Assembly: GCA_003661105.1 (NCBI GenBank)
Contig: QMVM01000001.1
Span: 1 to 32,058 of the forward strand
DNA from: Methanosarcinales archaeon
GTDB lineage: Archaea > Halobacteriota > Methanosarcinia > Methanosarcinales > Methanogasteraceae
Length of the DNA: 32,058 bases
Reading direction: 5' to 3'
Part shown: positions 1-14,211 of the stretch, piece by piece
Position numbering within the stretch: the first letter of the stretch is position 1
How the letters are laid out: each line of letters opens with the position of its first letter
Translations under genes and position numbers: made by a program
The notes under the pieces: generated by a model
Told to the model about the DNA's origin: nothing
The model's database searches: none
What the model saw: the letters and a program-made list of their open reading frames with translations, nothing else

Positions 1-1224
1 AAAATCCCGGTTCCCCTCGATCAGCCCTACCACCTCATCCGTGTCAAGCCCCTCGCAGACGTTATACTCCTCAATCCCGATGATCATGACGATCTTCCCG
101 TCACCTGCGATGCGTCTGACATGGTCGATCGCAGATTCCGCAGACGGTATATTCATGCCCGAGTTCGAGTTATCAACGACCGTCCTGCCATCGATCTCCA
201 CGATCTTCATTCTACCGCTTACTCCGCTGAAACCGTTGAGAAAAGACTCTATACAGTCCGGATCAGTGTTCATCGATATTGCAGCGGAGACCGCGGCAAG
301 AATTGCAGTTCTATACGAGAAGATATCATAGTCCTTGACTATAAACTCGATGCGCCGGTTCATCGCGGTAACGACGGCATGTGAATGGTCGATCTCCTCG
401 AAACGCACGTCCGCCCCAGCCCCTCCGGACCCGCCGTCCCCGAATGTGAGGATCTTTGCAGCCGGGTCAGTGGTTACACCGACATCGCGGTTTAAGATCA
501 GCGTTGATCCGGGTTTTGCACGCTCTACCATCTGCATCTTCGCGCTGGACGATAGTCCGGTCTTGTTTGCAATTAAGTAATCGCCTGCTAGCGTGGTGAT
601 GATGCCGATGTCTGCAAGTCCTGTGCCGCCGAGCGAGACCTCGAAGATGAAGATATCCGGTTCCACCCCCGGCTCGGCTTTGACCGATTCCACCGCCCTG
701 ATGATGCTTGCCGGCGCAATGCTCCACTTTGCGATCGTTCTTGCACTGCTGCCGCCACTACCAGCCCCACCTCCACCTCCACCATCCCAGTACTCAACAC
801 CTGCGCTGGTATGCGAGACGATTTTCTTACCAGAACATTCCGCTAACATTCCTGCAAGCAGCCGTACGGTGCTCGTCTTTGCGGTCGTGCCGGTCACCTC
901 GATTATGTGGTACCGCTCGAGACGCTGTTTTAGTATCTCGTGGACCGCGGCATGGTGCGTGATCACCGGTACCGGCACGTCCGCGGCGCGCGCATCGCGA
1001 AGTGTCCTGTACGCAGAATCGAGATGCACAGGCGCGACGATCAGATCGAAATCGCCGGCATCCGGTGGTTCTGCCATGACCGGGATGCCGGACGATTCGA
1101 GATCGCGGCGCGCTTCGTCGCTGACAGTACCATACACATCGACAGCGATGATCGCATCAGTCTCTGCGAGAGACTGTGCGATCAGATCGCCGCCATGCGT
1201 CAGATCGAGCACCGCGATATCCAT
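1..1224 (-). CDS. cfbE: Coenzyme F430 synthetase-like Mur-ligase family protein (CfbE), C-terminus beyond window edge
   Basis: Absent from the ORF track because it has no stop in the window. My minus-strand translation from ATG 1224-1222 stays open to position 1 (408 codons): MDIAVLDLTHGGDLIAQ...HIIEVTGTTAKTSTVRLLAG... It has a Mur-ligase P-loop (TGTxxKTST). Its start lies 2 nt after the stop of the CbiX/CfbA gene, which suggests an operon. Confidence 0.7.
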   Translation of the reverse strand, partial: MDIAVLDLTHGGDLIAQSLAETDAIIAVDVYGTVSDEARRDLESSGIPVMAEPPDAGDFDLIVAPVHLDSAYRTLRDARAADVPVPVITHHAAVHEILKQRLERYHIIEVTGTTAKTSTVRLLAGMLAECSGKKIVSHTSAGVEYWDGGGGGGAGSGGSSARTIAKWSIAPASIIRAVESVKAEPGVEPDIFIFEVSLGGTGLADIGIITTLAGDYLIANKTGLSSSAKMQMVERAKPGSTLILNRDVGVTTDPAAKILTFGDGGSGGAGADVRFEEIDHSHAVVTAMNRRIEFIVKDYDIFSYRTAILAAVSAAISMNTDPDCIESFLNGFSGVSGRMKIVEIDGRTVVDNSNSGMNIPSAESAIDHVRRIAGDGKIVMIIGIEEYNVCEGLDTDEVVGLIEGNRDF

Positions 1225-1226
1225 AT

Positions 1227-1616
1227 TCAGCGTGAAAGCGCTTCTTCCGCCCTCTTATATGCAAGTTCCGCGATACACGCATCTGCGCCGAGTGGAGCGG
1301 CATAAACGATATCAACCGACTTCCCGTCGATCTCTGTCACCGCTCTCTTATCCTCATTCAGATTCAGTTCTTTCGGGATGTCCTCAAGCGTGTGGACGCC
1401 GTGTGCAAGGAAGATCGGGAGCGCAACGATTCGGTCAACGCCGGTTCCAGCGAAACTTTCCAGCCCCTGCTTAAGTGTCGGTTGGTCCATGTTCAAAAAC
1501 GCTGTCCGTACGACGACATCGCCCTGATCGGCGATCATCCCGGATAGCGTCTCAACGAGTTCCTTGTTATATGGAAGTGTGCTTCCGTGTCCGAGTACCA
1601 GTATACCTGTGTTCAT
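1227..1616 (-). CDS. cfbA: Small CbiX-type sirohydrochlorin chelatase (CfbA, nickel/cobalt chelatase)
   Basis: 129-aa ORF MNTGILVLGHGSTLPYNKE...ALPIFLAHGVHTLEDIP, the typical short archaeal CbiX(S) length with conserved His residues. It is immediately followed by the cfbE-like gene. Confidence 0.85.
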   Translation of the reverse strand: MNTGILVLGHGSTLPYNKELVETLSGMIADQGDVVVRTAFLNMDQPTLKQGLESFAGTGVDRIVALPIFLAHGVHTLEDIPKELNLNEDKRAVTEIDGKSVDIVYAAPLGADACIAELAYKRAEEALSR

Positions 1617-1764
1617 AGATTTGCCTCCTGTGTTACGTAGAATGTTGGATGGTAACTATCATTGTTAAACCCATCGACGCGCGATATGACCTGACCGCTG
1701 CATTTATATACTAGAACGACAGATGTATAGTTGTCATTATCATTATGATAATGAGGTGGTTATC

Positions 1765-2262
1765 ATGGCATGGACAAAAACAGAAAATGTATGGGAAGAT
1801 CTGGATGAGGTGCTCTGCGGCGCAGTGTGCCTCATCTTTGGGTGGGGTTCAGCCACGCTTGGTCACGAATGCTTTCACTTATTGGTTGCACGAACGCTAG
1901 GACTTACAGCAACGCTTGGCGAGGTTACCCTCACCACAGGATCGGTGTTCGTACAGGGGGATATGACATCGATCGAGACGATGCTCGTGGCGGTCGCGGG
2001 CAGTCTCGGGTTGGTCATAGCCGGGGTGCTACTGATCTACTCGTTTGAAAACAAGATGATACGCATGATCGGCGCGGTTTTCCTGTGCAGGGCATGGATC
2101 GATGCCCTTCCGCTCTGCGACCTTGATGGCGGAATCTTTATGCAGTCCGCGTGTACTGCTCTTGGAACTGCGGGATTGCTTGCAGCATGGCTCTTCGTTA
2201 TCCTCGAGATTCTTGTAAGCGGCGGTGCAATCGCACACGTGATCAAGAGTGGGTCTATTTAA
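1765..2262 (+). CDS. Small polytopic membrane protein with S2P/M50-like metalloprotease motifs
   Basis: It has HExxH (GHECFHLL) and a second motif IDALPLCDLDGG that resembles the M50 NxxPxxxLDG motif, plus several hydrophobic helices. I prefer ATG 1765 (MAWTK) because GAGGTG lies 6 nt upstream and a TTTATATA box lies at about 1703-1710. The track ORF starts at 1723. Confidence 0.55.
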   Translation: MAWTKTENVWEDLDEVLCGAVCLIFGWGSATLGHECFHLLVARTLGLTATLGEVTLTTGSVFVQGDMTSIETMLVAVAGSLGLVIAGVLLIYSFENKMIRMIGAVFLCRAWIDALPLCDLDGGIFMQSACTALGTAGLLAAWLFVILEILVSGGAIAHVIKSGSI

Positions 2263-2455
2263 CGCTCCTTTGTGTTATACGTTAGCACAGTGTCGGGTGT
2301 GCCTTCTCCGGCACATCTGGCATCTGTGACGACTTTTTTAGATACTGGTGCTTTTGTTTTTTACCACTCTGACGGATCAATGGAAGAGTGAAGAACGTTT
2401 AATATCAGGGGTTTATAAACGTAATTTGAAATTTCATTTATGGTGGTATGCAAAC

Positions 2456-3373
2456 ATGAAACAATCATTTGCCCGCGGGATTATCCTCCTGATCATTACA
2501 GTCTCTCTCATGCTCACACTCAGTCTCACAGGGTGCATCACAAAGCAGGAGCCGGAGTGGGACGTGACCAACGACGGGTTGTTGAGGTACCGGATGCCCG
2601 CGCTGGATCCGGGTACAGAGCCCGTGCGAGAACTGCTCGAAAAAACGGATAATTACACACTCTGCGAGGTTGTTTACAAGAGCAGAGGGGCAGATATCGA
2701 AGGACTCATCCGGATACCAGAGAATAGTTTCGGAAGACAAGTTCCCGGAATCGTGCTGCTCCCTGGTGCAACCGTGACAAAGGAGGGTGAACAGGGGCTT
2801 GCCAGATACCTCTGCGATATCGGGTATGCAAGCATCGCTATCGACCAGCGCAATCTCGGCGGCATCAACATGGAAGGTGATCTCCGGATGTTTCTAAACG
2901 GAGAGGAGCCCGTGCAGCACAAGATGGTATATGATGCCCTCTCAGCAGCAGAGGTGCTGCGGCGGCAGCCAGAGATCGATCCTGACCGGATTCTATATCT
3001 CGGCGAGAGCAACGGCGGCAGATTTGCGATCGCCGGATGCGCTCTTGACAAGAGAGCGCGGGGTGTTGTTGCGATCAGTACGTGTGGTTACGGGATCGAT
3101 GCGCTGGTTGCTTCAGGGCAAATGATGGACCCTGATGTGGTCCGGTTTTATCGATCGGTTGATCCTGACACGTACCCGGATGAGATCAGCCCGAGAACGT
3201 TTGTGATGATCCATTCTTCAAACGATCCGGTCATCCCATATAGTAGCGCACAGCAGACCTACATAAAAATCGGTGAACCGAAATCGCTGCATGTGATCGA
3301 GGCTGAGGGGCACGGGTACAACGCCGCGATGAATCCTTTTTTGGAGGCGGAACTTGCGAGGATCTTCTCTTAG
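2456..3373 (+). CDS. Secreted or lipid-anchored alpha/beta hydrolase (dienelactone hydrolase / S9-like)
   Basis: From ATG 2456 the protein starts MKQSFARGIILLIITVSLMLTLSLTGC, a signal peptide with a lipobox-like Cys. It has a GESNGG nucleophile elbow, a later SSNDP Asp and an EGHGY His. The track ORF begins further upstream at GTG 2348. Confidence 0.7.
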   Translation: MKQSFARGIILLIITVSLMLTLSLTGCITKQEPEWDVTNDGLLRYRMPALDPGTEPVRELLEKTDNYTLCEVVYKSRGADIEGLIRIPENSFGRQVPGIVLLPGATVTKEGEQGLARYLCDIGYASIAIDQRNLGGINMEGDLRMFLNGEEPVQHKMVYDALSAAEVLRRQPEIDPDRILYLGESNGGRFAIAGCALDKRARGVVAISTCGYGIDALVASGQMMDPDVVRFYRSVDPDTYPDEISPRTFVMIHSSNDPVIPYSSAQQTYIKIGEPKSLHVIEAEGHGYNAAMNPFLEAELARIFS

Positions 3374-3408
3374 TCTTCTCTTAACACCCATATATAGTGA
3401 GAAATCGC

Positions 3409-3495
3409 TCACGCCAGAGCCATCCGGATCGCACCAGCCACGATGCCGCCGATAGCGGTTGATATCATGTTCACGCCGTTATTTGAGAGGATGCC
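3409..3495. repeat. Direct repeat copy A: orphan duplicate of the last ~29 codons of the 5655-7091 gene
   Basis: These 87 bp align with 5655-5741 with 7 mismatches and no gaps. On the minus strand they translate to GILSNNGVNMISTAIGGIVAGAIRMALA*, compared with GILSNNGVNAVSTAIGGIVAGAIWMALA* in the intact gene. Confidence 0.85.
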
Positions 3496-3516
3496 GAAAC
3501 AGTTGCACCATTCTAT

Positions 3517-4578
3517 GTGCAATACATTCCGACATTCATAGATACCTACTCGGAATGGCAGGAAGCAACTGTGAAACAATCCACGGTTTACCACGATCTC
3601 GATTGTGAAAAGTCGGCTTATGTCTTCGACGTAATTGAAAACGGACAGTACGCAGGCTACATCATTGTTTCAGCAACGAGGGATAACTACCCAATTCTTG
3701 AGTTTTCGACAGGTAGAACGACTGACGTAATAACAGAACTCACAACAGGTTCTGACACGCTGGCACAGGAACGTGCCGATGAGAGGAGATTGACCGCTGG
3801 AGAATCAGAACCGCTCTATCTTGGCGCAACGTTCTATTGTGTAGAGTACTCTCTGATTAATGATAGAGGCGAGGTCGTAGATCATGTAGTGGTGGATATG
3901 ACAGTGCCAGCAATCGTTGATCTTGACGCATCACAGGTTGAGGTGCCGATAGGTGAGAATGACTTACTGGAACAAGAGCGGATGAAAAAGCAGGAGGCGA
4001 ATGCACTTTGGGATTCTCTCGAAGAGAAGATGAAAACAACTTCTCCGGAAGGTCCAGCATTGTCACGTGGATTGGGACATATCTCTAACTATCCATAGTA
4101 TCATGGATGCTCTCCAACCGCAGCCGGAATGGTTCTTGGGTACTGGGATAGTCATGGTTATCCGAATTTCCCCATTGGGCCCGACGGAGAAACATTGATA
4201 GGTGAGCTGGCTGATGCGATGGGAACTAATTGGCCAGGAAATGGAGAAACTTGGCCATGGGGCATTGACGATGGTATAGAAGAAGTCTGTGAAAACCACG
4301 GATACAGCAACTTCGATGCAAGCAATGACTACTGGATGACATGGAACGAAGTAAAAGATAAGGTTGATGCAAACAAACCGTTTGTGATGAGCATGCTACA
4401 TGGTGGCACAGGCAGCGGGCAGTCCCAACCGTACGGCGACCACAGTGTTGCCTGTGTTGAATACAGCGATTACGACGAAGATTATGTATTCATACACGAT
4501 ACACGGGACGAAGATGAACATCATTACATGGCGTATGGCAACTGGTGGGCAGCAATGGCAACATGGGTGAGACCTTAA
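3517..4578 (+). pseudogene. C39-like / papain-fold cysteine peptidase domain protein, 5'-truncated and interrupted by an in-frame TAG
   Basis: Track ORFs 3517-4098 and 4129-4578 are in the same frame and are separated only by TAG at 4096-4098. Read-through gives ...GHISNYP*YHGCSPTAAGMVLGYWDSHGYPNF...GDHSVACVEY, with a catalytic Cys motif and a downstream His. The frame opens only at 3487, inside repeat copy A. The first start is GTG 3517 and there is no signal peptide. Confidence 0.6.
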
Positions 4579-4619
4579 TCATCCATTTTTTATTTTTTTA
4601 TAAAATTGATAGGAAAAGA

Positions 4620-5375
4620 ATGTTTAAAAGTAAAATGAGTAAAATAGCTGCGATACTGGCATTGTTTATGGTTGCCGGACTGTGCGTGGGGTTTATTATT
4701 CTTCCTTTTGTTTCTCTCACCGGGTATCCTCCTGCCGATTGCATGCAGGTGTGGTATCTTCCGTCTCCGGATTATGTCAGCGCAGACTTTAATGTGAGTG
4801 CTGTGGAAGCGATCTTAGATGATCTGGCTGCAAACAGAACTTGCATAAATGAGACAATTCTCGCAGAACACATACCATTGGAGGGCGTGGCAGTGAATGA
4901 GACTTTCGCAGGATATTTCTCATTGATCTGCGAGAGGAAGGCGGGGGTATCACCCTCATTCTTCCCGGTGCTTTCGCAGTACTGCGGGTATGCAAACTAC
5001 TCACGAACAGGCTCGGATGACCAATATCTGGCGGGTGAATGGTACTTTGATGGTATCAAAGAGTTCTTACAAGCGGAGAAGGAACTGTGCCGATATTTAG
5101 AAGAACACGGACGAGTTTCAACTGTGGAGTTGAATATAAGCAAAGGATCGAGATATTCACCAAAAAGTTTCGATGCCACCAAATACGAATGTGAAACTAC
5201 ATCAGGATATTTTCTGATCTACAAGAATACATTCGGACGCGAGGGTGATTATTTCATCGTTTACTACGGAACAGTGGGATCGGTTGACCTTTCGAACCAG
5301 ACACCGTTTCTGAAAGCTCTGATAGCAGACCGTTATCCCACTGGATCCGGGATTGTTGGGCATTTAAAGTCGTGA
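4620..5375 (+). CDS. Hypothetical N-terminally membrane-anchored, Cys-rich, probably extracellular protein
   Basis: ATG 4620 gives MFKSKMSKIAAILALFMVAGLCVGFIILPFV (one TM helix). The rest is hydrophilic with 7 N-x-S/T sequons and 8 Cys. I recognise no family. Confidence 0.45.
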   Translation: MFKSKMSKIAAILALFMVAGLCVGFIILPFVSLTGYPPADCMQVWYLPSPDYVSADFNVSAVEAILDDLAANRTCINETILAEHIPLEGVAVNETFAGYFSLICERKAGVSPSFFPVLSQYCGYANYSRTGSDDQYLAGEWYFDGIKEFLQAEKELCRYLEEHGRVSTVELNISKGSRYSPKSFDATKYECETTSGYFLIYKNTFGREGDYFIVYYGTVGSVDLSNQTPFLKALIADRYPTGSGIVGHLKS

Positions 5376-5654
5376 TTCAAAAAGGGAATCAGCCTCGAGG
5401 CATTTTTCATCTCCATCTGAAACCAAGGTTGTTCGGTTTTGACCGGACGATACCGATTGGGTTTATAAACTATGTTTAATTGGCTACTCATGTTTTGGAG
5501 ATCAATCAACTTTCGCATTAAGTGGAACTGTTGACTTGGTGACGTTGAGCTGATATGACGAAACACTTCCCACCAACTCGAAAAAACACCACCCACGTTA
5601 TGCATCATTCTCAAGACCTGGTGTAGCGACTTCACCGGAAAACCGACACCATCG

Positions 5655-5741
5655 TCACGCCAGAGCCATCCAGATCGCGCCGGCCACGATGCCGCCGATA
5701 GCGGTTGAGACCGCGTTCACGCCGTTATTTGAGAGGATGCC
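5655..5741. repeat. Direct repeat copy B (the functional 3' end of the 5655-7091 gene)
   Basis: See copy A: 80 of 87 positions are identical, in the same orientation, 2246 bp apart. Confidence 0.85.
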
Positions 5742-7091
5742 TCGCTGCTGCAGGGTTGCGCCGAGAAGACTGTCGATGTTCGTGCCGAGAAATCCGCTTA
5801 AGGTAACGATCGATATCCCGAGGATGCATGCGGAGTCCGTCCCGATCACGCCAAATAGAAGCGCGAGAAGCGCGATCGCAAGAGACCCAAACAACGCAGC
5901 AGCCTCGCCGAGTGAAGATACGCCCCCATCGACGCCGGGGTCAACTTTTTTTAAGGTGGTGATCATGCGAGGGCTTCCCTCGTACGTAGTCCCGATCTCG
6001 CTTGCAAGTGTGTCACCAGTTGCTGTTGCAACCGAGCCAAGGTACACGTAAAGGATTATGTTCGCTGCCTCCGGAAATATCGGATAGCAGATGCTTGCAG
6101 CGATCGCAACGATGCTGTTGCTGAAGACATTCTTGTACCCCCTCGCGCCTCCTTTTCCTTGCGCAATCCCGAGCGACTGCTTATACTTATATTTGTACTT
6201 TGTAAATCCGCCTCCGAGCAAATAAAATGCCAGGAGAAGCAGGAACCACCAGACATCCGTGAATGCGATGATCAGAACTCCGACAAGGGTTGCGCTGAGC
6301 AGTCCTGATATGTCAGCAATCCCTGCCCTGTATGCCAGATACCCAAGTATCAGTGCGAAAGCAAGCGCAAGCACCATCGATACGTACGAGACTGAATATC
6401 CGAAACTGAAGAAGAGCCACATCGCCATCGCAGAGCCGATCGGAACTGTGATGTTGTCATGAATCCTTGTCGAGATGCATTCGAGAAGCGCGCCTGTTAC
6501 GGCTCCTATGACCGAGATAAAGAAGATCAGCTGGAACGGGACCGAAAATGATGTGGGCTCTGTCCAGTGCAGGATCCAGCATCCGATCAGGAATGAAAAG
6601 ACGGTTCCTGTGAAGAGAAGCGTTAAACTGACCTTGATAGACTCAGGTTTTGTTCTTCCCTCAGAGTACCCGCGTTCGGGGTACTTGATGTTACCGAGTG
6701 CTTCATACCTTGCCTGATTGGCAACACGCAGGATCGTCGCGATGCCGTCGCCGAAGGTGGTGATCGCTATTGCACCTCCGATGATGAAGACCGGAAACTC
6801 GTACTCGGTGAATGTGAGTATCCCTGCGATCAGAAGCAGGAGCAACATGCTCCCACTAAGGAAGATCGCGCCCAAGGGTCTTTTGATGGCTACACCGGAC
6901 CCGCGATACGACAGGATTCCAAAGAGTCCACCTGACCGCGGCAGTAACAGGACAAAGAGAAATAAGAGAAGCGATAGCAATACGAGATACTGCAGAGGCA
7001 GGAACGGAAACGCAAGGACAATCATTCCGATCAGGATATGGATCGTCTGTCTCTTATACTCACGCTTGATGTCTATCTGCATTGCAGTCAC
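5655..7091 (-). CDS. Polytopic membrane protein, DUF92/TMEM19-like with an N-terminal polyprenol (dolichol/phytol) kinase-like region
   Basis: The 478-aa ORF is highly hydrophobic throughout. It has a GDGIA motif in the N-terminal third and a C-terminal half typical of archaeal DUF92 proteins. The family assignment is from memory of the family, not from a search. Confidence 0.55.
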   Translation of the reverse strand: MTAMQIDIKREYKRQTIHILIGMIVLAFPFLPLQYLVLLSLLLFLFVLLLPRSGGLFGILSYRGSGVAIKRPLGAIFLSGSMLLLLLIAGILTFTEYEFPVFIIGGAIAITTFGDGIATILRVANQARYEALGNIKYPERGYSEGRTKPESIKVSLTLLFTGTVFSFLIGCWILHWTEPTSFSVPFQLIFFISVIGAVTGALLECISTRIHDNITVPIGSAMAMWLFFSFGYSVSYVSMVLALAFALILGYLAYRAGIADISGLLSATLVGVLIIAFTDVWWFLLLLAFYLLGGGFTKYKYKYKQSLGIAQGKGGARGYKNVFSNSIVAIAASICYPIFPEAANIILYVYLGSVATATGDTLASEIGTTYEGSPRMITTLKKVDPGVDGGVSSLGEAAALFGSLAIALLALLFGVIGTDSACILGISIVTLSGFLGTNIDSLLGATLQQRGILSNNGVNAVSTAIGGIVAGAIWMALA

Positions 7092-7181
7092 CTGTTGGGT
7101 GTGTTCTGTTGTACTTGCTCAATTAAGTTGTGGTCACTCTTCCACCCTGGGATCGTGGATTTCTTTCACATTTGCAAAGGA

Positions 7182-7383
7182 TCATCTGTAGATTCCAGTG
7201 CTTTCCATTGCCACCGATGGGGCGTCGTTCTCTTTAAGCCAGTTTCGCAATTCAAGCAGTCCATTGTGATCTGTTGAGAATCTCTTGATTATCGGCTCTT
7301 CCACGCCACTGATCATGATTGCAGCGAAGACATAAGAGTTTGTGGACGTCGATGCCACAAACTTTATTTATCTTTTGATCCAT
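7182..7383 (-). pseudogene. IS110-family (DEDD) transposase, N-terminal stub, frameshifted and truncated
   Basis: The minus strand from ATG 7383 reads MDQKINKVCGIDVHK. After a 1-nt frame change near 7335-7340 it continues SYVFAAIMISGVEEPIIKRFSTDHNGLLELRNWLKENDAPSVAMESTGIYR*. GIDVxK and AMESTGIY are the signature N-terminal motifs of IS110 transposases. Similarity stops at about 7190. It is too short for the ORF track. Confidence 0.7.
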
Positions 7384-7580
7384 TATGATACCTCTGGTAA
7401 TCGCTTGAAAGCCCGCTATCCGATGAAATTCAAAATTTCAGCTTGGCACTCGTGGTTTAGACCACAACAGCATTAATCTGTGGCTAAAACAGTATTTTTA
7501 GATTGACGATTCCCCATTATGGCAGTTGTGGTTGCATAAGACAATCCGACGTTCCCAGAAACTAATAAAAAGACTCTTCA

Positions 7581-8999
7581 TCACTCCACCACCCTCACCG
7601 TGATCAGATTGGTGGTCCCGGAAACGAAGATCGGCACTCCGGTCGTGAGCACCACCCGGTCCCCAGCCTTTGCAAAGCCAGCGTCCATCGCGGATCGCAC
7701 CGACGCATCCATCGCCTCATCAGTCGTCCCAACCGCAGGGATTCTAAGCGGAGTAACGCCCCATATAAGAGCAAGTCTCGAGAAGGTCGCTTCGTCCGGC
7801 GTTATCGCGATGATCGGAGTTTTCGGGCGGTACATCGAGACGACGGTTGCCGTGCTTCCCGAGTACGTGGTGGTGATGATCGCTGCGGCATTCAGATTGC
7901 ATGCAAGCTGGCAGACGGCATGCCCGATGCTGCGTTCGATCGAGAGTCCGGTCACATCGGCGTCTGCGTCCGTGTGCATCCGCCATCCAACAGACTCGGT
8001 CGTTCTTGCGATCCGGTCCATCATACTAAGGCTCTCGATTGGATAGTCTCCGATCGTGGTCTCTCCTGAGAGCATGATCGCATCAGTCCCGTCCAGTATG
8101 GCGTTTGCGACATCTGTCGCCTCGGCGCGGGTCGGGATCGCATCATGGATCATCGATTCGAGCATCTGGGTGGCTGTGATAACAGGCTTGCCTGATGCAT
8201 TGGACTCCGCGATGAGCCTCTTCTGCGTAATCGGCACCTCTTCAATCGGAATCTCGACTCCGAGATCCCCTCTCGCCACCATGATCCCATCCGCCACCTT
8301 CAGTATCTCCGGAAAATTGTCAAGCCCCTTCTTCGTCTCGATTTTGGCGATGACCGGGATATCTACCTCCTGCTCATGGATCATCTGCTTGACACCGGAG
8401 ATATCGGACGCTCTCCTCACGAATGAAACTGCAATGTAATCGACATTATGTTCTATTCCGAATGAGATATCCTTTTTATCCTTTTCAGTGACGCTCGGTA
8501 CTGAAAAATGCGCCTCCGGGACGCTTACCCCCCTTTTATCGGTGAGAACTCCTCCAACAACAACCTTCGCCTCGACACACCCTCCATCAGTACTCACGAC
8601 CACCATTCTGATCCTGCCGTCATCGATCATGATCGTCTGACCATCTGATACCTCTTTAGCAAAGAGCGGATACCTCACGCCGATATGACACGCATCTCCG
8701 ATTATGTCGCTGGACTGGATGGTTACATCATCTCCAGCGCGTAGAACGATGCTTCCACCTTGCACCCGGGAGGTCCTGATCTTCGGACCCTGAATATCCA
8801 GCATTATAGCGACGGCACGGTTCTGCTCCTGTGAAAGTGCTCGTACCACGCGTATCTGTCTCGCGTGCCACTCATGCGTGCCATGCGACATGTTGAGCCG
8901 GCAGACATCCATGCCGCGCCCGATCAGCTGGCGCAGGGATTCCTCGGATTCGGTGGCAGGTCCGGTGGTGCAGATGATCTTTGTTCTTCTCATGGTCAT
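7581..8999 (-). CDS. pyk: Pyruvate kinase
   Basis: MTMRRTKIICTTGPATESEESLRQLIGRGMDVCRLNMSHG... is the canonical PK N-terminus, and the protein is full-length with a C-terminal regulatory domain. The track ORF extends to 9212, but its first 71 aa are not protein-like, so I prefer ATG 8999 or 8993. An oligo-T run follows the stop on the minus strand. Confidence 0.9.
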   Translation of the reverse strand: MTMRRTKIICTTGPATESEESLRQLIGRGMDVCRLNMSHGTHEWHARQIRVVRALSQEQNRAVAIMLDIQGPKIRTSRVQGGSIVLRAGDDVTIQSSDIIGDACHIGVRYPLFAKEVSDGQTIMIDDGRIRMVVVSTDGGCVEAKVVVGGVLTDKRGVSVPEAHFSVPSVTEKDKKDISFGIEHNVDYIAVSFVRRASDISGVKQMIHEQEVDIPVIAKIETKKGLDNFPEILKVADGIMVARGDLGVEIPIEEVPITQKRLIAESNASGKPVITATQMLESMIHDAIPTRAEATDVANAILDGTDAIMLSGETTIGDYPIESLSMMDRIARTTESVGWRMHTDADADVTGLSIERSIGHAVCQLACNLNAAAIITTTYSGSTATVVSMYRPKTPIIAITPDEATFSRLALIWGVTPLRIPAVGTTDEAMDASVRSAMDAGFAKAGDRVVLTTGVPIFVSGTTNLITVRVVE

Positions 9000-9416
9000 G
9001 GTTCTGTGTAGTACAATAGTCCGGTTCCAGTCGATCGGGAATTTATGTATCACATCCCAACTCAAGTCCGCCTTACTCTTTTGAGGGGCGGCATATAAGA
9101 GTTTTGAGACTGTAGTGTAGCGACAATTTAATTTGCAGATGCAATAAAAAATCTCCACATCATAATATATCGCTGTCGCGCGACGATTGATGAGGCTCAT
9201 AACATTCTTCAACTTCTTAAGAGTGCAGTCTCAAGGAGACTTTACATATGCGGGGTTCGTATCCTATTGTATGGAACGTGGGGGACTCCACCATGATTTA
9301 TGCACGATAACATTTTGGGACCAGTCTATATTTGGGGCACAAAAAATCTATCCGAAAATTCCAGTAACACCGGCAAGGATCCGGGATGCCACATAGTACA
9401 TGCTCCGAACCGTCAC

Positions 9417-10175
9417 CTATGCGATTATCTGCCAGATGGTGTTCACCATAATTTCCAGATTCTTATCGACCCACGACTGACGATTCTTCTTTATTCTCTG
9501 TCCAACGATCCCCCTAAGGTTTTCGACGTGATTATTGTTGTCAGGGATATGTATTCCTCTTGATGTCAATTTTGCGAACAGCGTTACTTTACCAGCGGTT
9601 CTGAGAATGAATTTAGCAGTATTACTGTTCTTGTTCCTTGATAACAGCTCATTAGCGATTGACAGCAACTCTTTTTGAGTGGTATCTATTTGATTCGTAC
9701 ACTGCTGGATTCTGTAGCCACAATCCTCTAAATGTTGTTGTAAGTTAGCATCTCCGTCACAAATAGCGTACACTTCGTCAGAAATGTTGTAATTCCTCTT
9801 GATATGGGATAAAAACTCTGACCAACTCTTGACCGCATCCAGGTATAGTAGAAACTCTTCTCCGGTTTCCAAATCGAGCCCCAACGCGCCTTTGATGCTA
9901 GGACGACCGCCCGACCGCCTCTTTGATTTGGTGTCATCTATGATTATAGCATCGATCGTTTGACCGTTGTATTGCGAATAAATTGGATTTCTTATTGGTA
10001 GTGTCTTATTTTCATAGAATATTTTCTTTAACTTGGAAGAACTCACTTTAACCCCCTGCAAGATGCCAATCAGAAAAGATGCCTCCGAAAACGAGACTAT
10101 TGTGCACAGATATTTCCACGAAGGATGGTGTATGGAATCAAGTAGATTTTTATCTCGGTTGTGCAAATAAGGCAC
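9417..10175 (-). CDS. IS orfB, DDE-type transposase catalytic region (probably expressed as an OrfAB fusion)
   Basis: Candidate acidic triad: AIIIDDTKSKRR, VYAICDGDANL, PDNNNHVENLRGIVGQRIKK. RIQQCTNQ after the second D and N-x-V-E-x-L-x6-R-I-K loosely resemble IS256/Mutator-type transposases. There is no ATG at the 5' end; the track start is GTG. Confidence 0.5.
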   Translation of the reverse strand: MPYLHNRDKNLLDSIHHPSWKYLCTIVSFSEASFLIGILQGVKVSSSKLKKIFYENKTLPIRNPIYSQYNGQTIDAIIIDDTKSKRRSGGRPSIKGALGLDLETGEEFLLYLDAVKSWSEFLSHIKRNYNISDEVYAICDGDANLQQHLEDCGYRIQQCTNQIDTTQKELLSIANELLSRNKNSNTAKFILRTAGKVTLFAKLTSRGIHIPDNNNHVENLRGIVGQRIKKNRQSWVDKNLEIMVNTIWQIIA

Positions 10176-10405
10176 TATGAACGTTTTTTCCCCGCTTCAT
10201 CGAGCGTTCTCTTTGCATGGAAGTCAAATTCAAAATGGGGTGTCCTGATGTGTACTTTTTTGCTTCCCTTTCTCATTTTCGCTTGTTGTGCCATATCATC
10301 CTGCAAACTGTCGAGATACTTCCTTGGTCCGAGGTCTTCGATGCTGTTGACTGCGTCATCGCCGATGCCAACTTCGATGGTCAGTTTCCGTTCAGGCATG
10401 TGCAA
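10175..10405 (-). CDS. IS orfA (76 aa), upstream transposase reading frame
   Basis: It lies inside the TIR-bounded element and ends ...DEAGKKRS* with TAG at 10177-10175. An A6 run (plus-strand T6 at 10184-10189) sits 6 nt before that stop. orfB is open in the -1 frame from just upstream of the run. Confidence 0.45.
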   Translation of the reverse strand: MHMPERKLTIEVGIGDDAVNSIEDLGPRKYLDSLQDDMAQQAKMRKGSKKVHIRTPHFEFDFHAKRTLDEAGKKRS

Positions 10406-10615
10406 TTGAACTGGAGGCGTTTTTATTAAAACTTGTTATGAACCGGCTGGGAATGAATACTGTGCCCGAGTAAAAACTGGTCCCAAAATATTATCACTCT
10501 ATGAAAGAAACGATACTCACAACCATGAAACGCTATTTAAATCCGTTGACCGTTACAAGTATTCGGACGCGAAAACAGAAGCGACTTCTAATCGATGCAA
10601 TCTGGGAGATATGAT

Positions 10616-10852
10616 ATGGAAAAATTTAATCTGACCGCCATAATGTGGAGCGAAGAGGACGTATATGTTTCAAAATGCCCTGAGTTGGGCGTTGCAAGTT
10701 GTGGAGATACGCTGGAAGAGGCACTTAGCAATTTAAAAGAAGCAGTAGAGCTTTATCTCGATAACGCCAGGGAGTTAGGGCTTATTACAGATGTAGAAAC
10801 TGCCCTCACATCTTCTCATAAATTCACATCGGCATTCGAGGTTGCCGCATGA
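10616..10852 (+). CDS. hicB: HicB-family antitoxin (UPF0150-type)
   Basis: MEKFNLTAIMWSEEDVYVSKCPELGVASCGDTLEEALSNLKEAVELYLDN is the classic HicB N-terminal domain pattern. Its stop overlaps the hicA start (ATGA). The track ORF starts at 10595. Confidence 0.8.
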   Translation: MEKFNLTAIMWSEEDVYVSKCPELGVASCGDTLEEALSNLKEAVELYLDNARELGLITDVETALTSSHKFTSAFEVAA

Positions 10853-11088
10853 AGAAGATTCCAGCAGTTTCTTCGGATGATGTGGCCCGGGTATTGAAAA
10901 AAGTGGGATTTGAGTATGCTCCAAAGCGTGGTAAGGGTAGTCACGCCGCGTTTTACAGAATTGATGAAAATGGGCGTAAATTACTTGTTATTGTGCCGAA
11001 AAGGAGAGAACTGCCAAAAGGAACTCTTTTATCTATTCTTCAACAAGCTAATTTGTCAAAAGATGATTTTATTAAATTACTGAAATAA
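10849..11088 (+). CDS. hicA: HicA-family mRNA interferase toxin
   Basis: The 79-aa protein has SSDDVARVLKKVGFEY...KGSHAAFYR...IVPKRRELPKGTLLSILQQANLSKDDF, the HicA (YcfA) signature including the catalytic-region GSH. Confidence 0.85.
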   Translation: MKKIPAVSSDDVARVLKKVGFEYAPKRGKGSHAAFYRIDENGRKLLVIVPKRRELPKGTLLSILQQANLSKDDFIKLLK

Positions 11089-11310
11089 ATAATGAAACGA
11101 TGAGAGCAAAATCAACAAACTGCCCACGGATGCCCTCGAATTCATTCGTGGGTTGGAAGGCTGGGGCTTAACCCAAACCTCGTCTCTTCCACTCCAAGCT
11201 TCAAATATCCGAAATCATACAAATCAGAACCAACGCACCATCTGAATTGGCACCCCCGCGGGTTTAAGAAATCTTAAAGTACAGCTAAGTTTCAGATTCA
11301 TCTGATCGAC

Positions 11311-14211
11311 ATGCAATACAATCCACAGACGATCGAGAGAAAATGGCAGGAAAAATGGGATGCAGAACGGATATTCCAGCCAGAGGTATCCGGTAAAGAG
11401 AAGTATTTCATAACAATTCCATATCCCTACTTAAACGGAAATTTACATGCCGGTCATACCAGAACATTCACCATAGGAGATGTTATAGCCAGATACCAGC
11501 GGATGCTTGGACGAAACGTCCTCTTTCCAATGGGTTTTCATGCAACAGGCACCCCGCTCATAGGTCTTGCCGAATTGATCGCAAAACGCGATCCCGAAAC
11601 CGTGCGCGTCTACACGGAACTGCACGGCATCCCCATGGATGTGCTTGAGACGCTCGACTCTCCTGAATCGCTTGCCGAATATTTCGGCAGGGAAGCAGAG
11701 GCTGTGATGCGGAAGGTCGGATTCTCCATCGACTGGACCAGGAGGTTCACAACGATCGATCCGGCTTACAAGAAGTTTATTGAATGGCAGTTTAATCGGC
11801 TGTATGACCTCGGTTATGTCGTCAAGGGCTCGCATCCGGTGAGGTGGTGCCCGAATGACCAAAATCCGGTCGAGGATCATGATCTGCTCCACGGGGAGGG
11901 TGCAAACATCCTCGATTACACATTACTCAAATTCAAACTCAAGTCGGATGCATCAGATGCACCGGACGGATGGGTTCTTCCGTGCGCAACGCTCCGCCCT
12001 GAAACCGTATTCGGTGTTACGAACCTCTGGATCAATCCCGAAGTCGTGTATGCGAAAGTCAGCGTCAATTCCGAGAAGTGGATCGTTTCTGAGGAAGCGT
12101 ACCGGAAACTGACGTACACCGATAAGGAGGTTAAAAAGATCGGCGAGATCAGCGGGAAGGATCTCATCGGAAAGACTGTCCGAAATCCGGTGATCGAGCA
12201 TGATGTGCTGATCCTGCCTGCAAGTTTTGTTGATCCCGCGAATGGAAGCGGGGTCGTGATGAGCGTTCCGGCACATGCGCCTTACGACTATCTGGCGCTA
12301 AGGGACCTTAAGGGGGTTGAACTCATCGAATACGGCATCCTTGATCTCTCGGACATCGAGCTGATCTCGCTTATCGAGGTTCCTGAGATGGGCGAGTTTC
12401 CTGCTGTTGAGATCGTGGAGGAACTCGGGGTTAAGGATCAGTCGGATCCGCTTGCAGAGAAGGCTACAAAACTCGTTTACAGAAGGGAGTTTCACCACGG
12501 GGTGCTTAAGGAGAATACGGGCAAGTACAGCGGGACTCCGGTCTCAAAGATAAAGGACGTCCTGACACGTGATCTCATCGAAGAGAACCTCGCAGACGTC
12601 TTTTACGAGTTCAGCGAACTGCCTGTGGTGTGCAGATGCGGGACGACATGCGTTGTTGCGATGGTCAAGGATCAGTGGTTCCTCAACTATTCTAACCCGG
12701 ACTGGAAGGCTAAAGTGTATGACCACCTTACCCGGATGCGGATCATCCCTGATGAACTGCGAGTTGAGTTCGAGAACAAGATCGATTGGTTGAAGGATAA
12801 GGCGTGTGCCCGCAAAAAAGGGCTTGGAACAAGACTGCCCTGTGATGACAAGTGGCTCATTGAGTCTCTTGCGGATTCGACGATTTACATGTCGTATTAC
12901 ATCATCTCAAAGTATCTTGACCGGCTAAAGGTGGAACAGCTCACGCCCGAGTTCTTTGATTATGTGCTGCTCGGAGAGGGCAGCGCGGATGGCATGTCTG
13001 TCGACCCGGATCTCGTAGAGCAGATACACGGCGACTTTGAGTACTGGTATCCTGTCGATATCAGGTCGTCAGGGAAGGATCTTGTCCCGAATCATCTCTT
13101 ATTCTTCCTATTCCACCACGTAGCCCTCTTTCCGGAGGATAAACTGCCAGAAGCGATCGCAATAAATGGATTCGTATCTCTTGAAGGAGAGAAGATGAGC
13201 AAGTCAAAAGGACCTCTGCTCACACTTAACCAGTCGATCGATGATTACGGTGCCGACGTGGTGCGGCTCTACATCCTCGGCGCTGCTGAGCAGACGCAGG
13301 ATGCGGACTGGCGATCCGAGGGCGCCAAAAGCACGCATAAGCAACTGGAGCGGTTCTACAACACTGTACGCGATATCGTCGAGACGCCAGAGCCGGATAG
13401 CGGTGTAGCACAAGAAATAGGGGCAGAGCCAGAGATCATCGATAGGTGGATGATGAGCCGGCTCCAGCACCGGATCGCAGAAACGAGCACGGCTCTCGAT
13501 GTGCTTCGCACGAGACATGCGCTTCAGAACGCATTCTACCTGCTGATGAACGATCTTAAGTGGTACCAGCGAAGAGGTGGTACAGCGTCCCTGAAAGATA
13601 TTGCAAGCGTCTGGATCCGGCTGATGGCCCCGTTCACGCCGCATGTCTGTGAGGAGTTGTGGACGGCGGCAGGAAACGACGGTTCGGTCTCGCTTTCAGA
13701 GTATCCGATCCCGGATCTAAGTCTGATCGACAGAGATTCCGAAAGAGCAGAGGAACTGGTGGAAAACACGCTTGGCGACATCGAGGAGATCGTTAGGGTG
13801 GCTGGGATAAAGCCTGGAAAGATCATGCTCTTCACAGCCCCGGTCTGGAAGAACATCGCATTCAAGGCTGCTCTTCTGGCGAAGCAGTCCGGAAAACTGG
13901 AGATGGGCTCTCTGATGAAGGAGTTAATGCAGAATCCCGAGATCAAGAAACATGCACGTGAGGTTCCGAAGTTCGTGCAGTCGTTAGTTAAGGATGTGCA
14001 GAGATGGGGCGATGAACAGATCGCAGACTCCACCCGATCGGCGGATGAACTGGACGTGCTCCTAAAATCCGCAGGTTTCATCGGAAAGGAGTTTAACTGT
14101 GCAGTTGCTGTCATGGACGCTGATTCTGCAGGTGATGATGTCGATCCACAGGGCAAGCGGAGATTTGCGGAACCCGGAAGGCCTGCAATCTATATCGAGA
14201 AGCAGCGGTGA
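11311..14211 (+). CDS. leuS: Leucyl-tRNA synthetase (archaeal type)
   Basis: 966 aa, with HIGH motif NGNLHAGHTRT, KMSKS motif EKMSKSKG, a CP1 editing insertion and an archaeal C-terminal extension. Confidence 0.95.
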   Translation: MQYNPQTIERKWQEKWDAERIFQPEVSGKEKYFITIPYPYLNGNLHAGHTRTFTIGDVIARYQRMLGRNVLFPMGFHATGTPLIGLAELIAKRDPETVRVYTELHGIPMDVLETLDSPESLAEYFGREAEAVMRKVGFSIDWTRRFTTIDPAYKKFIEWQFNRLYDLGYVVKGSHPVRWCPNDQNPVEDHDLLHGEGANILDYTLLKFKLKSDASDAPDGWVLPCATLRPETVFGVTNLWINPEVVYAKVSVNSEKWIVSEEAYRKLTYTDKEVKKIGEISGKDLIGKTVRNPVIEHDVLILPASFVDPANGSGVVMSVPAHAPYDYLALRDLKGVELIEYGILDLSDIELISLIEVPEMGEFPAVEIVEELGVKDQSDPLAEKATKLVYRREFHHGVLKENTGKYSGTPVSKIKDVLTRDLIEENLADVFYEFSELPVVCRCGTTCVVAMVKDQWFLNYSNPDWKAKVYDHLTRMRIIPDELRVEFENKIDWLKDKACARKKGLGTRLPCDDKWLIESLADSTIYMSYYIISKYLDRLKVEQLTPEFFDYVLLGEGSADGMSVDPDLVEQIHGDFEYWYPVDIRSSGKDLVPNHLLFFLFHHVALFPEDKLPEAIAINGFVSLEGEKMSKSKGPLLTLNQSIDDYGADVVRLYILGAAEQTQDADWRSEGAKSTHKQLERFYNTVRDIVETPEPDSGVAQEIGAEPEIIDRWMMSRLQHRIAETSTALDVLRTRHALQNAFYLLMNDLKWYQRRGGTASLKDIASVWIRLMAPFTPHVCEELWTAAGNDGSVSLSEYPIPDLSLIDRDSERAEELVENTLGDIEEIVRVAGIKPGKIMLFTAPVWKNIAFKAALLAKQSGKLEMGSLMKELMQNPEIKKHAREVPKFVQSLVKDVQRWGDEQIADSTRSADELDVLLKSAGFIGKEFNCAVAVMDADSAGDDVDPQGKRRFAEPGRPAIYIEKQR

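What the first reader, a model, noticed from the sequence alone, without database searches (positions are those of the whole stretch)
3409..5741. 2.2-kb islet bracketed by an 87-bp direct repeat that duplicates the 3' end of a membrane-protein gene
Positions 3409-3495 and 5655-5741 are direct repeats with 80/87 identical bases. The right copy is the true 3' end of the 478-aa DUF92-like gene. The left copy is an orphan tail fused into a meaningless 61-aa track ORF. This is the footprint left when an integrative element uses an att site inside the 3' end of a gene and brings its own replacement copy; the ~8 percent divergence fits a foreign origin for one copy.

The enclosed DNA has no integrase. 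It holds a peptidase-like gene whose frame opens inside the left repeat (so it lacks an N-terminus), an unknown membrane-anchored Cys-rich protein, and about 280 bp of noncoding DNA. I infer a decayed integrated element or cassette.
Basis: partly seen in the sequence, partly recalled or inferred. Interest (0 to 1): 0.6.

Follow-up and report, generated by a model that had tools for sequence, protein, structure and literature searches.

The report
Eroded gene-cluster remnant, not an integrated element
The 87-base repeat is real, but it is a scar of sloppy (microhomology) recombination and later deletions around a decaying chromosomal cluster of secreted-protease genes in a methane-oxidising archaeon (ANME-2c), not the footprint of a mobile element with an attachment site.

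Summary
Observation confirmed. The repeats at 3409-3495 and 5655-5741 match at 80/87 bases and are the only two copies in the genome. Sister genomes (Ca. Methanogaster, ANME-2c) show a clean empty site with one copy.

The att-site/integrase reading is not supported. Other Methanogaster genomes carry an ~8-kb, 7-gene module at this spot: C39-like peptidase, cargo251, C25/DUF6345 protein, PepSY protein, p142, and a membrane-anchored ArsR regulator. None has an integrase, and nothing matches phages, plasmids or viral contigs.

In the best-preserved copy (G008) the orphan DUF92 tail is 124 nt. It is joined at a 7-nt microhomology (GTCGATG) to a dead 3' fragment of the genus's own isopentenyl-phosphate-kinase gene.

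The window's 87-nt edge is a later deletion at a 10-nt microhomology (AGAGGATGCC). That deletion beheaded the peptidase gene, which also carries a TGG→TAG nonsense codon. A second deletion removed five genes. Only cargo251 survives intact (dN/dS about 0.2); it is an orphan membrane-anchored protein.

The islet's presence in this genome versus its sister lies on a homologous-recombination tract (about 2950-5694).

Verdict: an ordinary, nicely resolved variable-island remnant, of modest interest.

The parts
2456..3373 (+). Left flank: lipobox-bearing alpha/beta-hydrolase gene. A recombination breakpoint lies at about 2950.
   Evidence: Pfam DLH/AXE1/Peptidase_S9. Identity to sister genome G007 is 97.5% over 1850-2950 and 88.6% over 2951-3408 (Fisher p 1e-11).
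3374..3408 (.). Native 35-bp spacer between the hydrolase and DUF92 genes, as found at empty sites.
   Evidence: It is contiguous with the hydrolase gene and a single DUF92 tail in G007, G001 and G002.
3409..3495 (-). Orphan 87-nt copy of the DUF92 3' end (stop codon plus 28 codons). It is a severed, unconstrained fragment.
   Evidence: It shares the derived A-to-G change at position 18 (Trp to Arg) with the G008 orphan tail, and it has four private changes at positions 55-60.
3486..3495 (.). Deletion joint at the 10-nt microhomology AGAGGATGCC. This joint sets the '87-nt' edge and removes the peptidase start codon and signal peptide.
   Evidence: Base-level alignment of the window against the G008 tail and the G008 peptidase start.
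3487..4578 (+). Pseudogene of a secreted Peptidase_C39_2-like cysteine peptidase. It lacks 22 N-terminal codons, has a nonsense codon, and has 9-bp deletions.
   Evidence: Pfam PF13529, E 3e-12. Intact orthologues of 386-403 aa exist in G008, G009, G020 and G012. dN/dS is 0.39, against 0.28 between intact copies.
4096..4098 (+). TAG nonsense codon that replaces a conserved Trp codon (TGG).
   Evidence: Codon alignment with four intact homologues reads N-Y-L-W-H-C-G-C, against N-Y-P-*-Y-H-G-C in the window.
4620..5375 (+). cargo251: an intact gene for an orphan protein with an N-terminal membrane anchor and an alpha/beta ectodomain. It is the only surviving functional gene of the module.
   Evidence: 94% aa identity to G008. 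dN/dS is 0.16-0.25. The family has 46 clusters, no Pfam domain, and comes from ANME/Methanosarcinales MAGs. AlphaFold2 pLDDT is 75.8 and there is no PDB fold match.
5405..5479 (+). Promoter/operator-like repeat: the palindrome TTCGGTTTTGACCGGA followed by TTTATAAA. In intact modules it precedes the next gene (p255/p243).
   Evidence: Copies lie upstream of module genes in G008, G005, G006 and G012, and are dispersed upstream of many secreted-protein genes.
5480..5482 (.). Internal deletion joint. About 2.9-6 kb carrying five genes (p255/p243, p302/p311, p142, HTH regulator/TM77) is missing here.
   Evidence: Homology to G005, G006, G008 and G009 stops at 5479 and resumes at 5483. At most 3 nt of microhomology or filler is present.
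5483..5654 (.). Right terminus of the island: a ~110-nt conserved non-coding element (5483-5591) plus a 63-bp spacer that abuts the DUF92 stop codon.
   Evidence: It is found only at occupied sites, plus two partial copies in G009. It is not a CRISPR repeat and has no Rfam hit.
5655..7091 (-). Functional DUF92-family membrane-protein gene (478 aa). Its last 87 nt (5655-5741) are the right repeat copy.
   Evidence: Pfam PF01940. It is 98% identical to G007. dN/dS is 0.12-0.16.

Best explanation
The islet is the eroded remnant of a chromosomal gene module of about 8 kb. The module order is: secreted C39-like peptidase, cargo251, a C25/CHAT-like or DUF6345 protein, a PepSY protein, p142, then a membrane-anchored ArsR-type regulator. 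In many Ca. Methanogaster (ANME-2c) species it lies between the hydrolase and DUF92 genes.

The orphan DUF92 tail was not supplied by a mobile element's att site. It is a piece of the DUF92 3' end (originally at least 124 nt) that was cut off from its gene. This happened when a DNA segment was joined in by microhomology-mediated illegitimate recombination. That segment began inside the genus's own IPK gene, ran through the module, and ended at or in the DUF92 3' end. The mechanism I infer is homology-facilitated illegitimate recombination: DUF92 serves as the homologous anchor on one side, and a GTCGATG microhomology joint closes the other side. A replication template switch would leave the same scar.

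In this genome three later lesions shrank the island to 2.2 kb:
(1) A deletion between the decamer AGAGGATGCC in the orphan tail and the same decamer in the peptidase gene. It removed the IPK fragment, the promoter and the peptidase's first 22 codons, and it created the '87-nt' repeat edge.
(2) A TGG-to-TAG nonsense mutation plus small deletions in the peptidase.
(3) A deletion of the five distal genes (joint at 5480-5482).
Only cargo251 remains under purifying selection.

The island variant is exchanged between Methanogaster lineages by ordinary homologous recombination in the flanking genes. The tract in this genome runs from about 2950 to about 5694.

Shown: the anatomy, the joints, the empty sites, the decay, the absence of a recombinase, and the mosaic identity. 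Inferred: the HFIR-like mechanism and the direction of transfer.
For: Empty sites with exactly one core occur in G007, G001 and G002.

The full module lies at the same site in G005, G006, G008 and G009, and elsewhere in G012, G020 and G009:C125.

The left joint is a microhomology deletion. The G008 orphan tail is 124 nt, carries a 10-nt internal tandem duplication, and is joined at GTCGATG to IPK residues ~172 to the end. That IPK piece has 1-nt deletions and a GAG-to-TAG change. It is 79-88% identical to IPK genes of the same genus and 67-74% to those of other genera.

G005 lost its tail through a deletion at TCACGCC(A/G)GAG. The two orphan tails share a derived change. Occupied sites span the whole genus tree.

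No PF00589 hit lies on any island contig. Phages, plasmids and viral contigs give no match. No orphan tails occur outside the genus.

The TAG replaces a conserved TGG. dN/dS and dS values are. The cargo gene has dS 0.10 between G000 and G008, against 0.32-0.34 for the flanks. A 97-99% identity tract covers 4286-4890. The G000/G007 breakpoint lies at about 2950 (p 1e-11).
Against: The donor arrangement that the model predicts (IPK directly followed by the module and then DUF92) was not found in any sampled genome. In G012 the order is IPK, hydrolase, module, and DUF92 lies elsewhere.

The source of the right junction (63 bp at 5592-5654) is unknown, so no microhomology could be scored there.

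All genomes are fragmented MAGs.

A serine recombinase or an unknown recombinase acting in trans was not searched for explicitly.
Confidence: 0.7

Rival explanations
1. A site-specific integrative element (tyrosine-recombinase type) used an att site inside the DUF92 3' end, brought a replacement copy of it, and then lost its integrase.
For: There are direct repeats of a gene's 3' end, clean empty sites in relatives, lower GC inside the islet, and different cargo at the same spot in G002, G003 and G011. A second event in G002 is flanked by a 197-bp duplication that overlaps the same tail.
Against: No integrase appears in any of five or more versions of the island or on their contigs. The repeat length is not constant (87, 124 and 7 nt), and the 87-nt edge is a secondary deletion. 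The DNA abutting the orphan tail is a host IPK gene fragment joined at a microhomology. The module also sits at non-DUF92 sites without any DUF92 tail. There are no matches to viruses or plasmids.
Confidence: 0.08
2. A purely local origin. The module was always downstream of the hydrolase, as in genus g2. The tail'/IPK' joint is the junction of an old tandem or segmental duplication within an ancestral IPK-hydrolase-...-DUF92 neighbourhood. All empty sites are secondary losses.
For: IPK followed by hydrolase is the ancestral order in every g2 and g4 genome, and in G012 the module follows the hydrolase. So the two joined fragments come from the hydrolase's ancestral and present neighbours. Occupied sites span the genus root.
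Against: It needs several extra steps: loss of a second hydrolase copy, loss of a first module copy, and replacement of IPK by the TM179 gene upstream. The single tail in G007 lacks the orphan-specific G18, so a simple tail'/tail deletion from a G000-like ancestor is unlikely. The G000/G007 difference sits on a recombination tract.
Confidence: 0.17
3. An assembly artefact. The contig is a chimera of co-occurring strains, and the repeat-bracketed islet does not exist on one molecule.
For: The genome is a 345-contig, 76%-complete MAG. Identity to G007 is mosaic along the whole contig.
Against: The two copies differ at 7 of 87 positions, so they would not collapse or mis-join. The same architecture (hydrolase, orphan tail, peptidase, cargo) is assembled independently in G008 from another study. 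The right-end/DUF92 joint is assembled independently in four other MAGs.
Confidence: 0.03

Closest known systems
Homology-facilitated illegitimate recombination (HFIR) scars, described in naturally transformable bacteria such as Acinetobacter baylyi and Streptococcus pneumoniae (from my own knowledge, not checked in a paper here)
   Same: One end of the incoming DNA is anchored in a homologous gene (here DUF92). The other end is joined at a short microhomology (7 nt, GTCGATG). No recombinase gene is carried. The joined pieces are chromosomal DNA of close relatives.
   Different: This is seen in an uncultured archaeon and is inferred from comparative genomics only. The joint falls inside the anchor gene's own 3' end, so a 124-nt gene tail is left duplicated. 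Transformation or cell fusion has not been shown for ANME-2c.
Archaeal and bacterial integrative elements that target the 3' ends of tRNA or protein genes and restore them (for example pNOB8-type and SSV-type integrases, and tRNA-targeting genomic islands; from my own knowledge)
   Same: Direct repeats of a gene's 3' end bracket extra DNA. Relatives show an empty site with one copy. The GC content of the insert differs from the flanks.
   Different: There is no integrase. The repeat length is variable. A host-gene fragment sits at the inner edge. The module also occurs elsewhere without the repeat.
Flexible genomic islands or replacement hotspots exchanged by homologous recombination in conserved flanking genes (a concept from population genomics of marine bacteria and haloarchaea; from my own knowledge)
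   Same: The same inter-gene slot holds different cargo in different species (protease module, HsdR_N/DUF4268 gene, SMC-like ATPase, or nothing). Mosaic identity shows breakpoints in the flanks.
   Different: Here the slot also preserves the illegitimate-recombination scar of the original insertion and a stepwise deletion series.
Microhomology-mediated break-induced replication / fork stalling and template switching (MMBIR/FoSTeS)
   Same: There are microhomology joints, a small tandem duplication (10 nt) beside the joint, and duplication of the target segment.
   Different: It cannot be told apart from HFIR with the data at hand.

Membership tests
Site-specific integrative element (att site in a gene's 3' end) | Integrase/recombinase gene inside or beside the element | tested here: not met
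   ORF lists and Pfam scans of all island versions. PF00589 hits lie only on unrelated contigs. Serine recombinases were not searched for separately.
Site-specific integrative element (att site in a gene's 3' end) | attL/attR core of constant length and position in all occupied sites | tested here: not met
   The orphan tail is 87 nt in G000 (its edge is a microhomology deletion), 124 nt in G008 and 7 nt in G005.
Site-specific integrative element (att site in a gene's 3' end) | Empty site with a single core in relatives | tested here: met
   G007, G001 and G002:C122.
Site-specific integrative element (att site in a gene's 3' end) | Element DNA related to viruses or plasmids, or found as a free or circular form | tested here: not met
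   No match in phages, plasmids or IMG/VR. Circular junction reads could not be tested.
Illegitimate (microhomology-mediated) recombination scar / HFIR | Short microhomology exactly at the novel joint between unrelated sequences | tested here: met
   GTCGATG at the DUF92-tail/IPK joint. AGAGGATGCC at the tail/peptidase joint. TCACGCC(A/G)GAG in G005.
Illegitimate (microhomology-mediated) recombination scar / HFIR | Joined pieces are chromosomal DNA of the same or a closely related organism | tested here: met
   The IPK fragment is 79-88% identical to IPK genes of the genus and 67-74% to those of other genera.
Illegitimate (microhomology-mediated) recombination scar / HFIR | One-sided homologous anchor and a DNA-uptake route | not testable with these tools
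   The anchor in DUF92 is inferred from the geometry. No donor arrangement was found, and ANME-2c is uncultured.
Peptidase_C39_2 (PF13529) protein | Domain match and an intact reading frame | tested here: not met
   The domain matches (E 3e-12). However, the frame lacks 22 N-terminal codons and has a TGG-to-TAG change next to the catalytic-Cys motif. It is a pseudogene.
Pyrrolysine-encoding TAG | TAG conserved in orthologues (or aligned with Lys/Pyl) | tested here: not met
   All four intact homologues have TGG (Trp) at this codon. The pylTSBCD genes were not searched for.
DUF92 / TMEM19-like membrane protein (PF01940) | Pfam domain above the gathering score | tested here: met
   218.6 bits, residues 245-466.

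The most novel reading that the evidence does not exclude
The convergent hydrolase/DUF92 gene ends could be a recurrent entry point for DNA in ANME-2c through an integrase-independent route. That route would leave 60-200-bp duplications of the target: 124 nt for the protease module, and 197 nt for a different island in G002, with further unrelated inserts in G003 and G011. If so, it would be a footprint of natural inter-lineage DNA uptake (HFIR-like) in uncultured, syntrophic methanotrophic archaea. The module's dispersed promoter/operator repeat and its membrane-anchored ArsR regulator could then define an ANME-specific regulon of cell-surface proteases.
Probability: 0.15. Interest if true: 0.55.

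Novelty: new member of a known kind. Interest (0 to 1): 0.3.

Why it matters
This is a worked example of a repeat-bracketed islet with a clean empty site that looks exactly like a decayed integrative element but is not one. The 'core' length, the missing N-terminus and the apparent foreign divergence all come from microhomology deletions and from decay of a severed gene tail.

For ANME-2c biology it gives comparative evidence for two processes: illegitimate recombination, and frequent homologous exchange between Methanogaster lineages. It also flags a lineage-restricted module of secreted proteases, a PepSY protein and a membrane-bound regulator whose one surviving gene here (cargo251) has no known fold or function.

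It does not reveal a new kind of mobile element.

Tried and rejected
- **Dispersed repeat:** rejected. The genome holds only two copies.
- **Orphan DUF92 tails in other genera, in Methanosarcinaceae or in Methanocella:** none found.
- **Integrase near the island or near dispersed module copies:** none. The IS transposases in G009:C125 are unrelated neighbours.
- **Similarity to phages, plasmids or viral contigs:** none.
- **TAG read as pyrrolysine:** rejected, because the homologues have TGG.
- **The 37-nt GTT...AAAC motif at 5492-5528 as a CRISPR repeat:** rejected, because there is a single copy per locus.
- **Rfam over 3300-5800:** only sub-threshold noise.
- **Conserved fold of the 110-nt element:** stems are possible, but only one compensatory pair was seen, so it is unresolved.
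- **Function of cargo251 by Pfam, homologue names and Foldseek/PDB:** nothing significant.
- **Microhomology at the internal deletion joint:** at most 3 nt, so not informative.
- **First IPK mapping:** it used a wrong frame and was redone.
Full report
**1. The observation**

The repeat finder returns one outstanding direct repeat in the first 12 kb: 3409-3495 and 5655-5741, 87 nt, 80/87 identical. A search of the whole assembly (2.25 Mb, 345 contigs, 76% complete; the window is all of contig C1) finds only these two copies.

The right copy is the last 28 codons plus the stop of a 478-aa gene on the minus strand (5655-7091). Its C-terminal half is a DUF92 domain (PF01940, E 1e-64). The left copy lies 35 bp after the stop of a lipobox-bearing alpha/beta-hydrolase gene (2348/2456-3373), inside a meaningless 61-aa ORF.

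Between the copies are four features:
- a Peptidase_C39_2-like frame (3487-4578) that opens inside the left repeat and is interrupted by TAG at 4096-4098;
- an intact 251-aa ORF with an N-terminal hydrophobic anchor (4620-5375, 'cargo251');
- 279 bp of non-coding DNA;
- GC of 0.41-0.48, against 0.50-0.58 in the flanks.

**2. Organism and empty site**

Record titles of related loci identify the lineage as 'Candidatus Methanogaster' (ANME-2c, Methanogasteraceae, Methanosarcinales). The name and the MAGs are those of Chadwick et al. 2022 (PMC9012536).

I ran blastn of window 1-12000 against relatives' contigs. In G007 (DUF92 98% identical) window 1-3495 and window 5655-9244 align to adjacent stretches that overlap by exactly one 87-nt core. 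The same holds for G001 and for contig C122 of G002. So close relatives have the hydrolase gene directly beside the DUF92 gene, and the window carries 2246 extra bases.

**3. What the extra DNA is a remnant of**

Four other Methanogaster species (G005, G006, G008, G009) carry a larger insert at the same place. It is a co-oriented module, in this order:
- a secreted C39-like peptidase (386-403 aa, with a signal peptide);
- cargo251;
- a Peptidase_C25/CHAT-like protein (p255) or a DUF6345 protein (p243);
- a PepSY-domain protein (p302) or p311;
- p142;
- an ArsR/HTH_20 regulator fused to two transmembrane helices (176 aa in G020).

These are followed by about 170 bp and then the DUF92 stop codon (Pfam). 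The same module also occurs away from DUF92. In G012 there are two tandem copies downstream of IPK and a hydrolase homologue. In G020 it lies beside a Hel308-type helicase gene. In G009:C125 it lies among other secreted-protein genes and IS elements.

The window keeps only the first two genes. Homology to the full modules stops at 5479 and resumes at 5483, so an internal deletion removed the five distal genes. The window's genome has no other copy of any module gene.

**4. The 87-nt edge is a secondary deletion**

In G008 the peptidase begins MMAVLLIAVVSTPASAATSVSIEDAETVASFYVQ... The window's frame begins at ...EDAETVAPFYVQ. At DNA level the DUF92 tail reads ...TTTGAGAGGATGCC|TCGCTG..., and the G008 peptidase reads ...GCATAGAGGATGCC|GAAACAG... 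The window reads ...TTTGAGAGGATGCC|GAAACAG....

The joint therefore lies in a shared decamer, AGAGGATGCC. A deletion between the two decamers removed everything from tail position 88 to peptidase codon 22. So '87 nt' is not the length of a recombination core.

The peptidase is further damaged. Its TAG replaces a Trp codon (TGG) that is conserved in all four intact homologues. The adjacent H-C became Y-H, and there are 9-bp deletions.

**5. What lies beyond the orphan tail when it is not deleted**

In G008 the orphan tail runs 124 nt and contains an internal 10-nt tandem duplication of CCGAGAAGAC. It is followed by about 560 bp that the window lacks.

A family-wide DNA search with that stretch shows that its first ~265 nt match a single-copy locus in almost every genome of the family. 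Identity is 79-88% within the genus and 67-74% in other genera. In the window's own genome the match is on contig C166. It is the 3' end of the isopentenyl phosphate kinase (IPK) gene: MPPTILKIGGSV...HGAGSFGH...VDGVIADG....

Base-level alignment places the joint at a shared GTCGATG. The DUF92 side reads ...GACTGTCGATG|TTCG. The IPK side reads ...GCAGTCGATG|GCGTG. The fragment runs from about IPK residue 172 to just past the stop. It carries 1-nt deletions and a GAG-to-TAG change, so it is dead.

The remainder of the 560 bp is a promoter/operator-like sequence (palindrome TTCGGTnnnnACCGAA followed by TTTATAAA) plus a 5' leader. This sequence is dispersed upstream of many secreted-protein genes: 14 hits in G009 and 11 in G010. 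One copy is window 5405-5479.

G005 lacks an orphan tail. Its left edge reads TCACGCC|GGAGACGTTCGAGG. That is a deletion between the first bases of the tail and the near-identical TCACGCC(A/G)GAG inside the IPK fragment. So G005 descends from a G008-like structure.

All three resolved joints at the island's left end (one each in G008, G000 and G005) are thus microhomology joints between pieces of ordinary chromosomal genes.

**6. Tests of the integrative-element model**

- No ORF in any version of the island resembles an integrase or transposase.
- A PF00589 scan of eight genomes finds tyrosine recombinases only on unrelated contigs.
- The islet has no blastn match in 50,697 phage records or 72,556 plasmid records, and the peptidase has no relative in IMG/VR.
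- Orphan DUF92 tails exist only in this genus.
- The 8% divergence between the two copies needs no foreign source. The orphan carries private changes at positions 25 and 55-60, and its A59 is the state of most functional copies in the genus.
- The G000 and G008 orphans share one derived change (A18G, Trp to Arg) that is absent from every functional copy. This points to common descent.

**7. History**

On a DUF92 nucleotide tree, the occupied genomes (G006, G005, G009, G000, G008) span the whole genus, and the empty ones (G001, G007) are nested within it. The island is therefore old in Methanogaster.

It is also exchanged between lineages:
- cargo251 of G000 and G008 differ by dS 0.10, while their flanking DUF92 and hydrolase genes differ by dS 0.32-0.34.
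- Identity between these two genomes peaks at 97-99% over 4286-4890.
- Against its sister G007, the window is 97.5% identical over 1850-2950. This drops to 88.6% over 2951-3408 (Fisher p 1e-11) and returns to 97.3-97.7% from 5655 onward.

So the presence/absence difference between the two sisters lies on a homologous-recombination tract whose ends are in the hydrolase gene and in the first bases of the DUF92 tail. G007's single tail lacks the orphan-specific G18, which argues against a simple tail'/tail deletion in G007.

The caveat is that these are MAGs.

**8. Mechanism proposed**

The geometry of the G008 structure is: hydrolase, spacer, DUF92 bases 1-124, IPK fragment, module, then the complete DUF92. 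This is what a two-crossover replacement produces when the right crossover is homologous (inside DUF92) and the left one is illegitimate. In that case the recipient's DUF92 position 124 is joined to the donor's IPK position ~172 at GTCGATG. This is homology-facilitated illegitimate recombination.

Under this model the orphan tail is the recipient's own severed 3' end, and the functional gene's 3' end came in with the donor segment. A replication template switch (MMBIR/FoSTeS) would leave the same scar, and the 10-nt tandem duplication beside the joint fits either mechanism. This step is inference.

The predicted donor order (IPK, module, DUF92) was not found. A relevant fact is that IPK followed by hydrolase is the ancestral order in all g2 and g4 genomes, and in G012 the module follows that pair. 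So the module's ancestral home is the IPK neighbourhood, which explains why an IPK fragment travelled with it. The same fact also keeps alive a purely local duplication/rearrangement scenario, which I list as a rival.

**9. The slot is a hotspot**

- In G002, one contig runs from the complete hydrolase gene through the spacer and 57 nt of DUF92 tail into an HsdR_N/DUF4268 gene. Another contig runs from unrelated DNA through the last 108 nt of the hydrolase gene and the spacer into the complete DUF92 gene. The 197-nt overlap is 97% identical, so it is not a trivial assembly overlap.
- In G003 an SMC/SbcC-like ATPase gene lies downstream of DUF92.
- In G011 the sequence diverges immediately after the hydrolase stop codon.

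**10. What still works in the window**

cargo251 is intact and 94% identical to the G008 orthologue. It is under purifying selection (dN/dS 0.16-0.25), and an AT-rich TATA-like stretch lies about 20 nt upstream of its ATG.

Its family is tiny: 46 clusters among 5.8 billion proteins, all hypothetical, and essentially all from ANME/Methanosarcinales. An AlphaFold2 model (pLDDT 75.8) shows an N-terminal helix followed by an alpha/beta domain, with no significant PDB neighbour. Its function remains unknown. Its fixed position directly after the C39-like peptidase, and its amplification to three fused copies in G009:C125, suggest a partner, substrate or inhibitor role. That is speculation.

**11. 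Verdict**

It is wrong in mechanism: there is no att site, no integrative element and no foreign core.

The feature is a new instance of a known kind, namely a variable chromosomal island with illegitimate-recombination scars, exchanged by homologous recombination. Interest is modest.

Noticed in passing
window 5483-5591: A ~110-nt highly conserved non-coding element forms the island's right end. Partial copies occur at two unrelated places in G009 (C188, C246). It can form stems, but only one compensatory pair was seen. It has no Rfam hit and is not a CRISPR repeat, despite a 37-nt GTT...AAAC motif.
   Followed up: partly
window 5405-5479; L040 2344-2418: A promoter/operator-like repeat (palindrome TTCGGTnnnnACCGAA followed by TTTATAAA), plus a conserved 5' leader, is dispersed upstream of many secreted-protein genes in the family (14 hits in G009, 11 in G010). 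It may be the operator of the module's membrane-anchored ArsR-type regulator.
   Followed up: partly
L052 (G002:C227) 3620-3816 and L010 (G002:C122) 2001-2223: A second, independent event at the same slot. A 197-nt segment (hydrolase tail, spacer and 57 nt of DUF92 tail) is present twice at 97% identity. It flanks a different island that starts with an HsdR_N/DUF4268 gene.
   Followed up: partly
L037 (G003:C23) 3-1409; L128 (G011:C346): Other cargo occupies the same slot. G003 has an SMC/SbcC-like ATPase gene downstream of DUF92. In G011 the sequence diverges immediately after the hydrolase stop codon.
   Followed up: partly
L121 (G012:C202) 163-1811 and g2/g4 genomes generally: IPK is directly followed by the hydrolase homologue in every g2 and g4 genome where both were found. 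This linkage is broken in genus g1, where the hydrolase follows the small membrane-protein gene at window 1723-2262.
   Followed up: partly
L046 (G009:C125) 4333-10504: A large secretome cluster. It contains an M12 reprolysin-like metalloprotease, a C39-like peptidase, a 654-aa protein made of three fused cargo251 repeats, a Cys-rich 251-aa protein and a LolA-like protein, with IS transposases next to them.
   Followed up: no
L036 2682-3184; L039 2176-2680; L051 3075-3605: The HTH regulator and the TM77 membrane segment form one 176-aa ORF in G020. In the genus g1 genomes they appear as two overlapping frames. This may be a frameshift, a pseudogene or recoding.
   Followed up: no
window 1-9244 vs L033 (G007): Identity to the sister genome is strongly mosaic, ranging from 88% to 98% in blocks. 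For example, pyruvate kinase is 85% identical at aa level while DUF92 is 98%. This means either frequent recombination between Methanogaster lineages or strain-chimeric MAG contigs.
   Followed up: partly
window 7182-7358 (-): A short IS110-family transposase N-terminal stub lies between the DUF92 and pyruvate kinase genes. The region is conserved in G007, so it is unrelated to the islet.
   Followed up: no
window 6360-7091 (-): The N-terminal ~240 residues of the 478-aa DUF92 protein are a multi-pass membrane region with no Pfam match. The fused architecture is conserved across Methanosarcinales.
   Followed up: no
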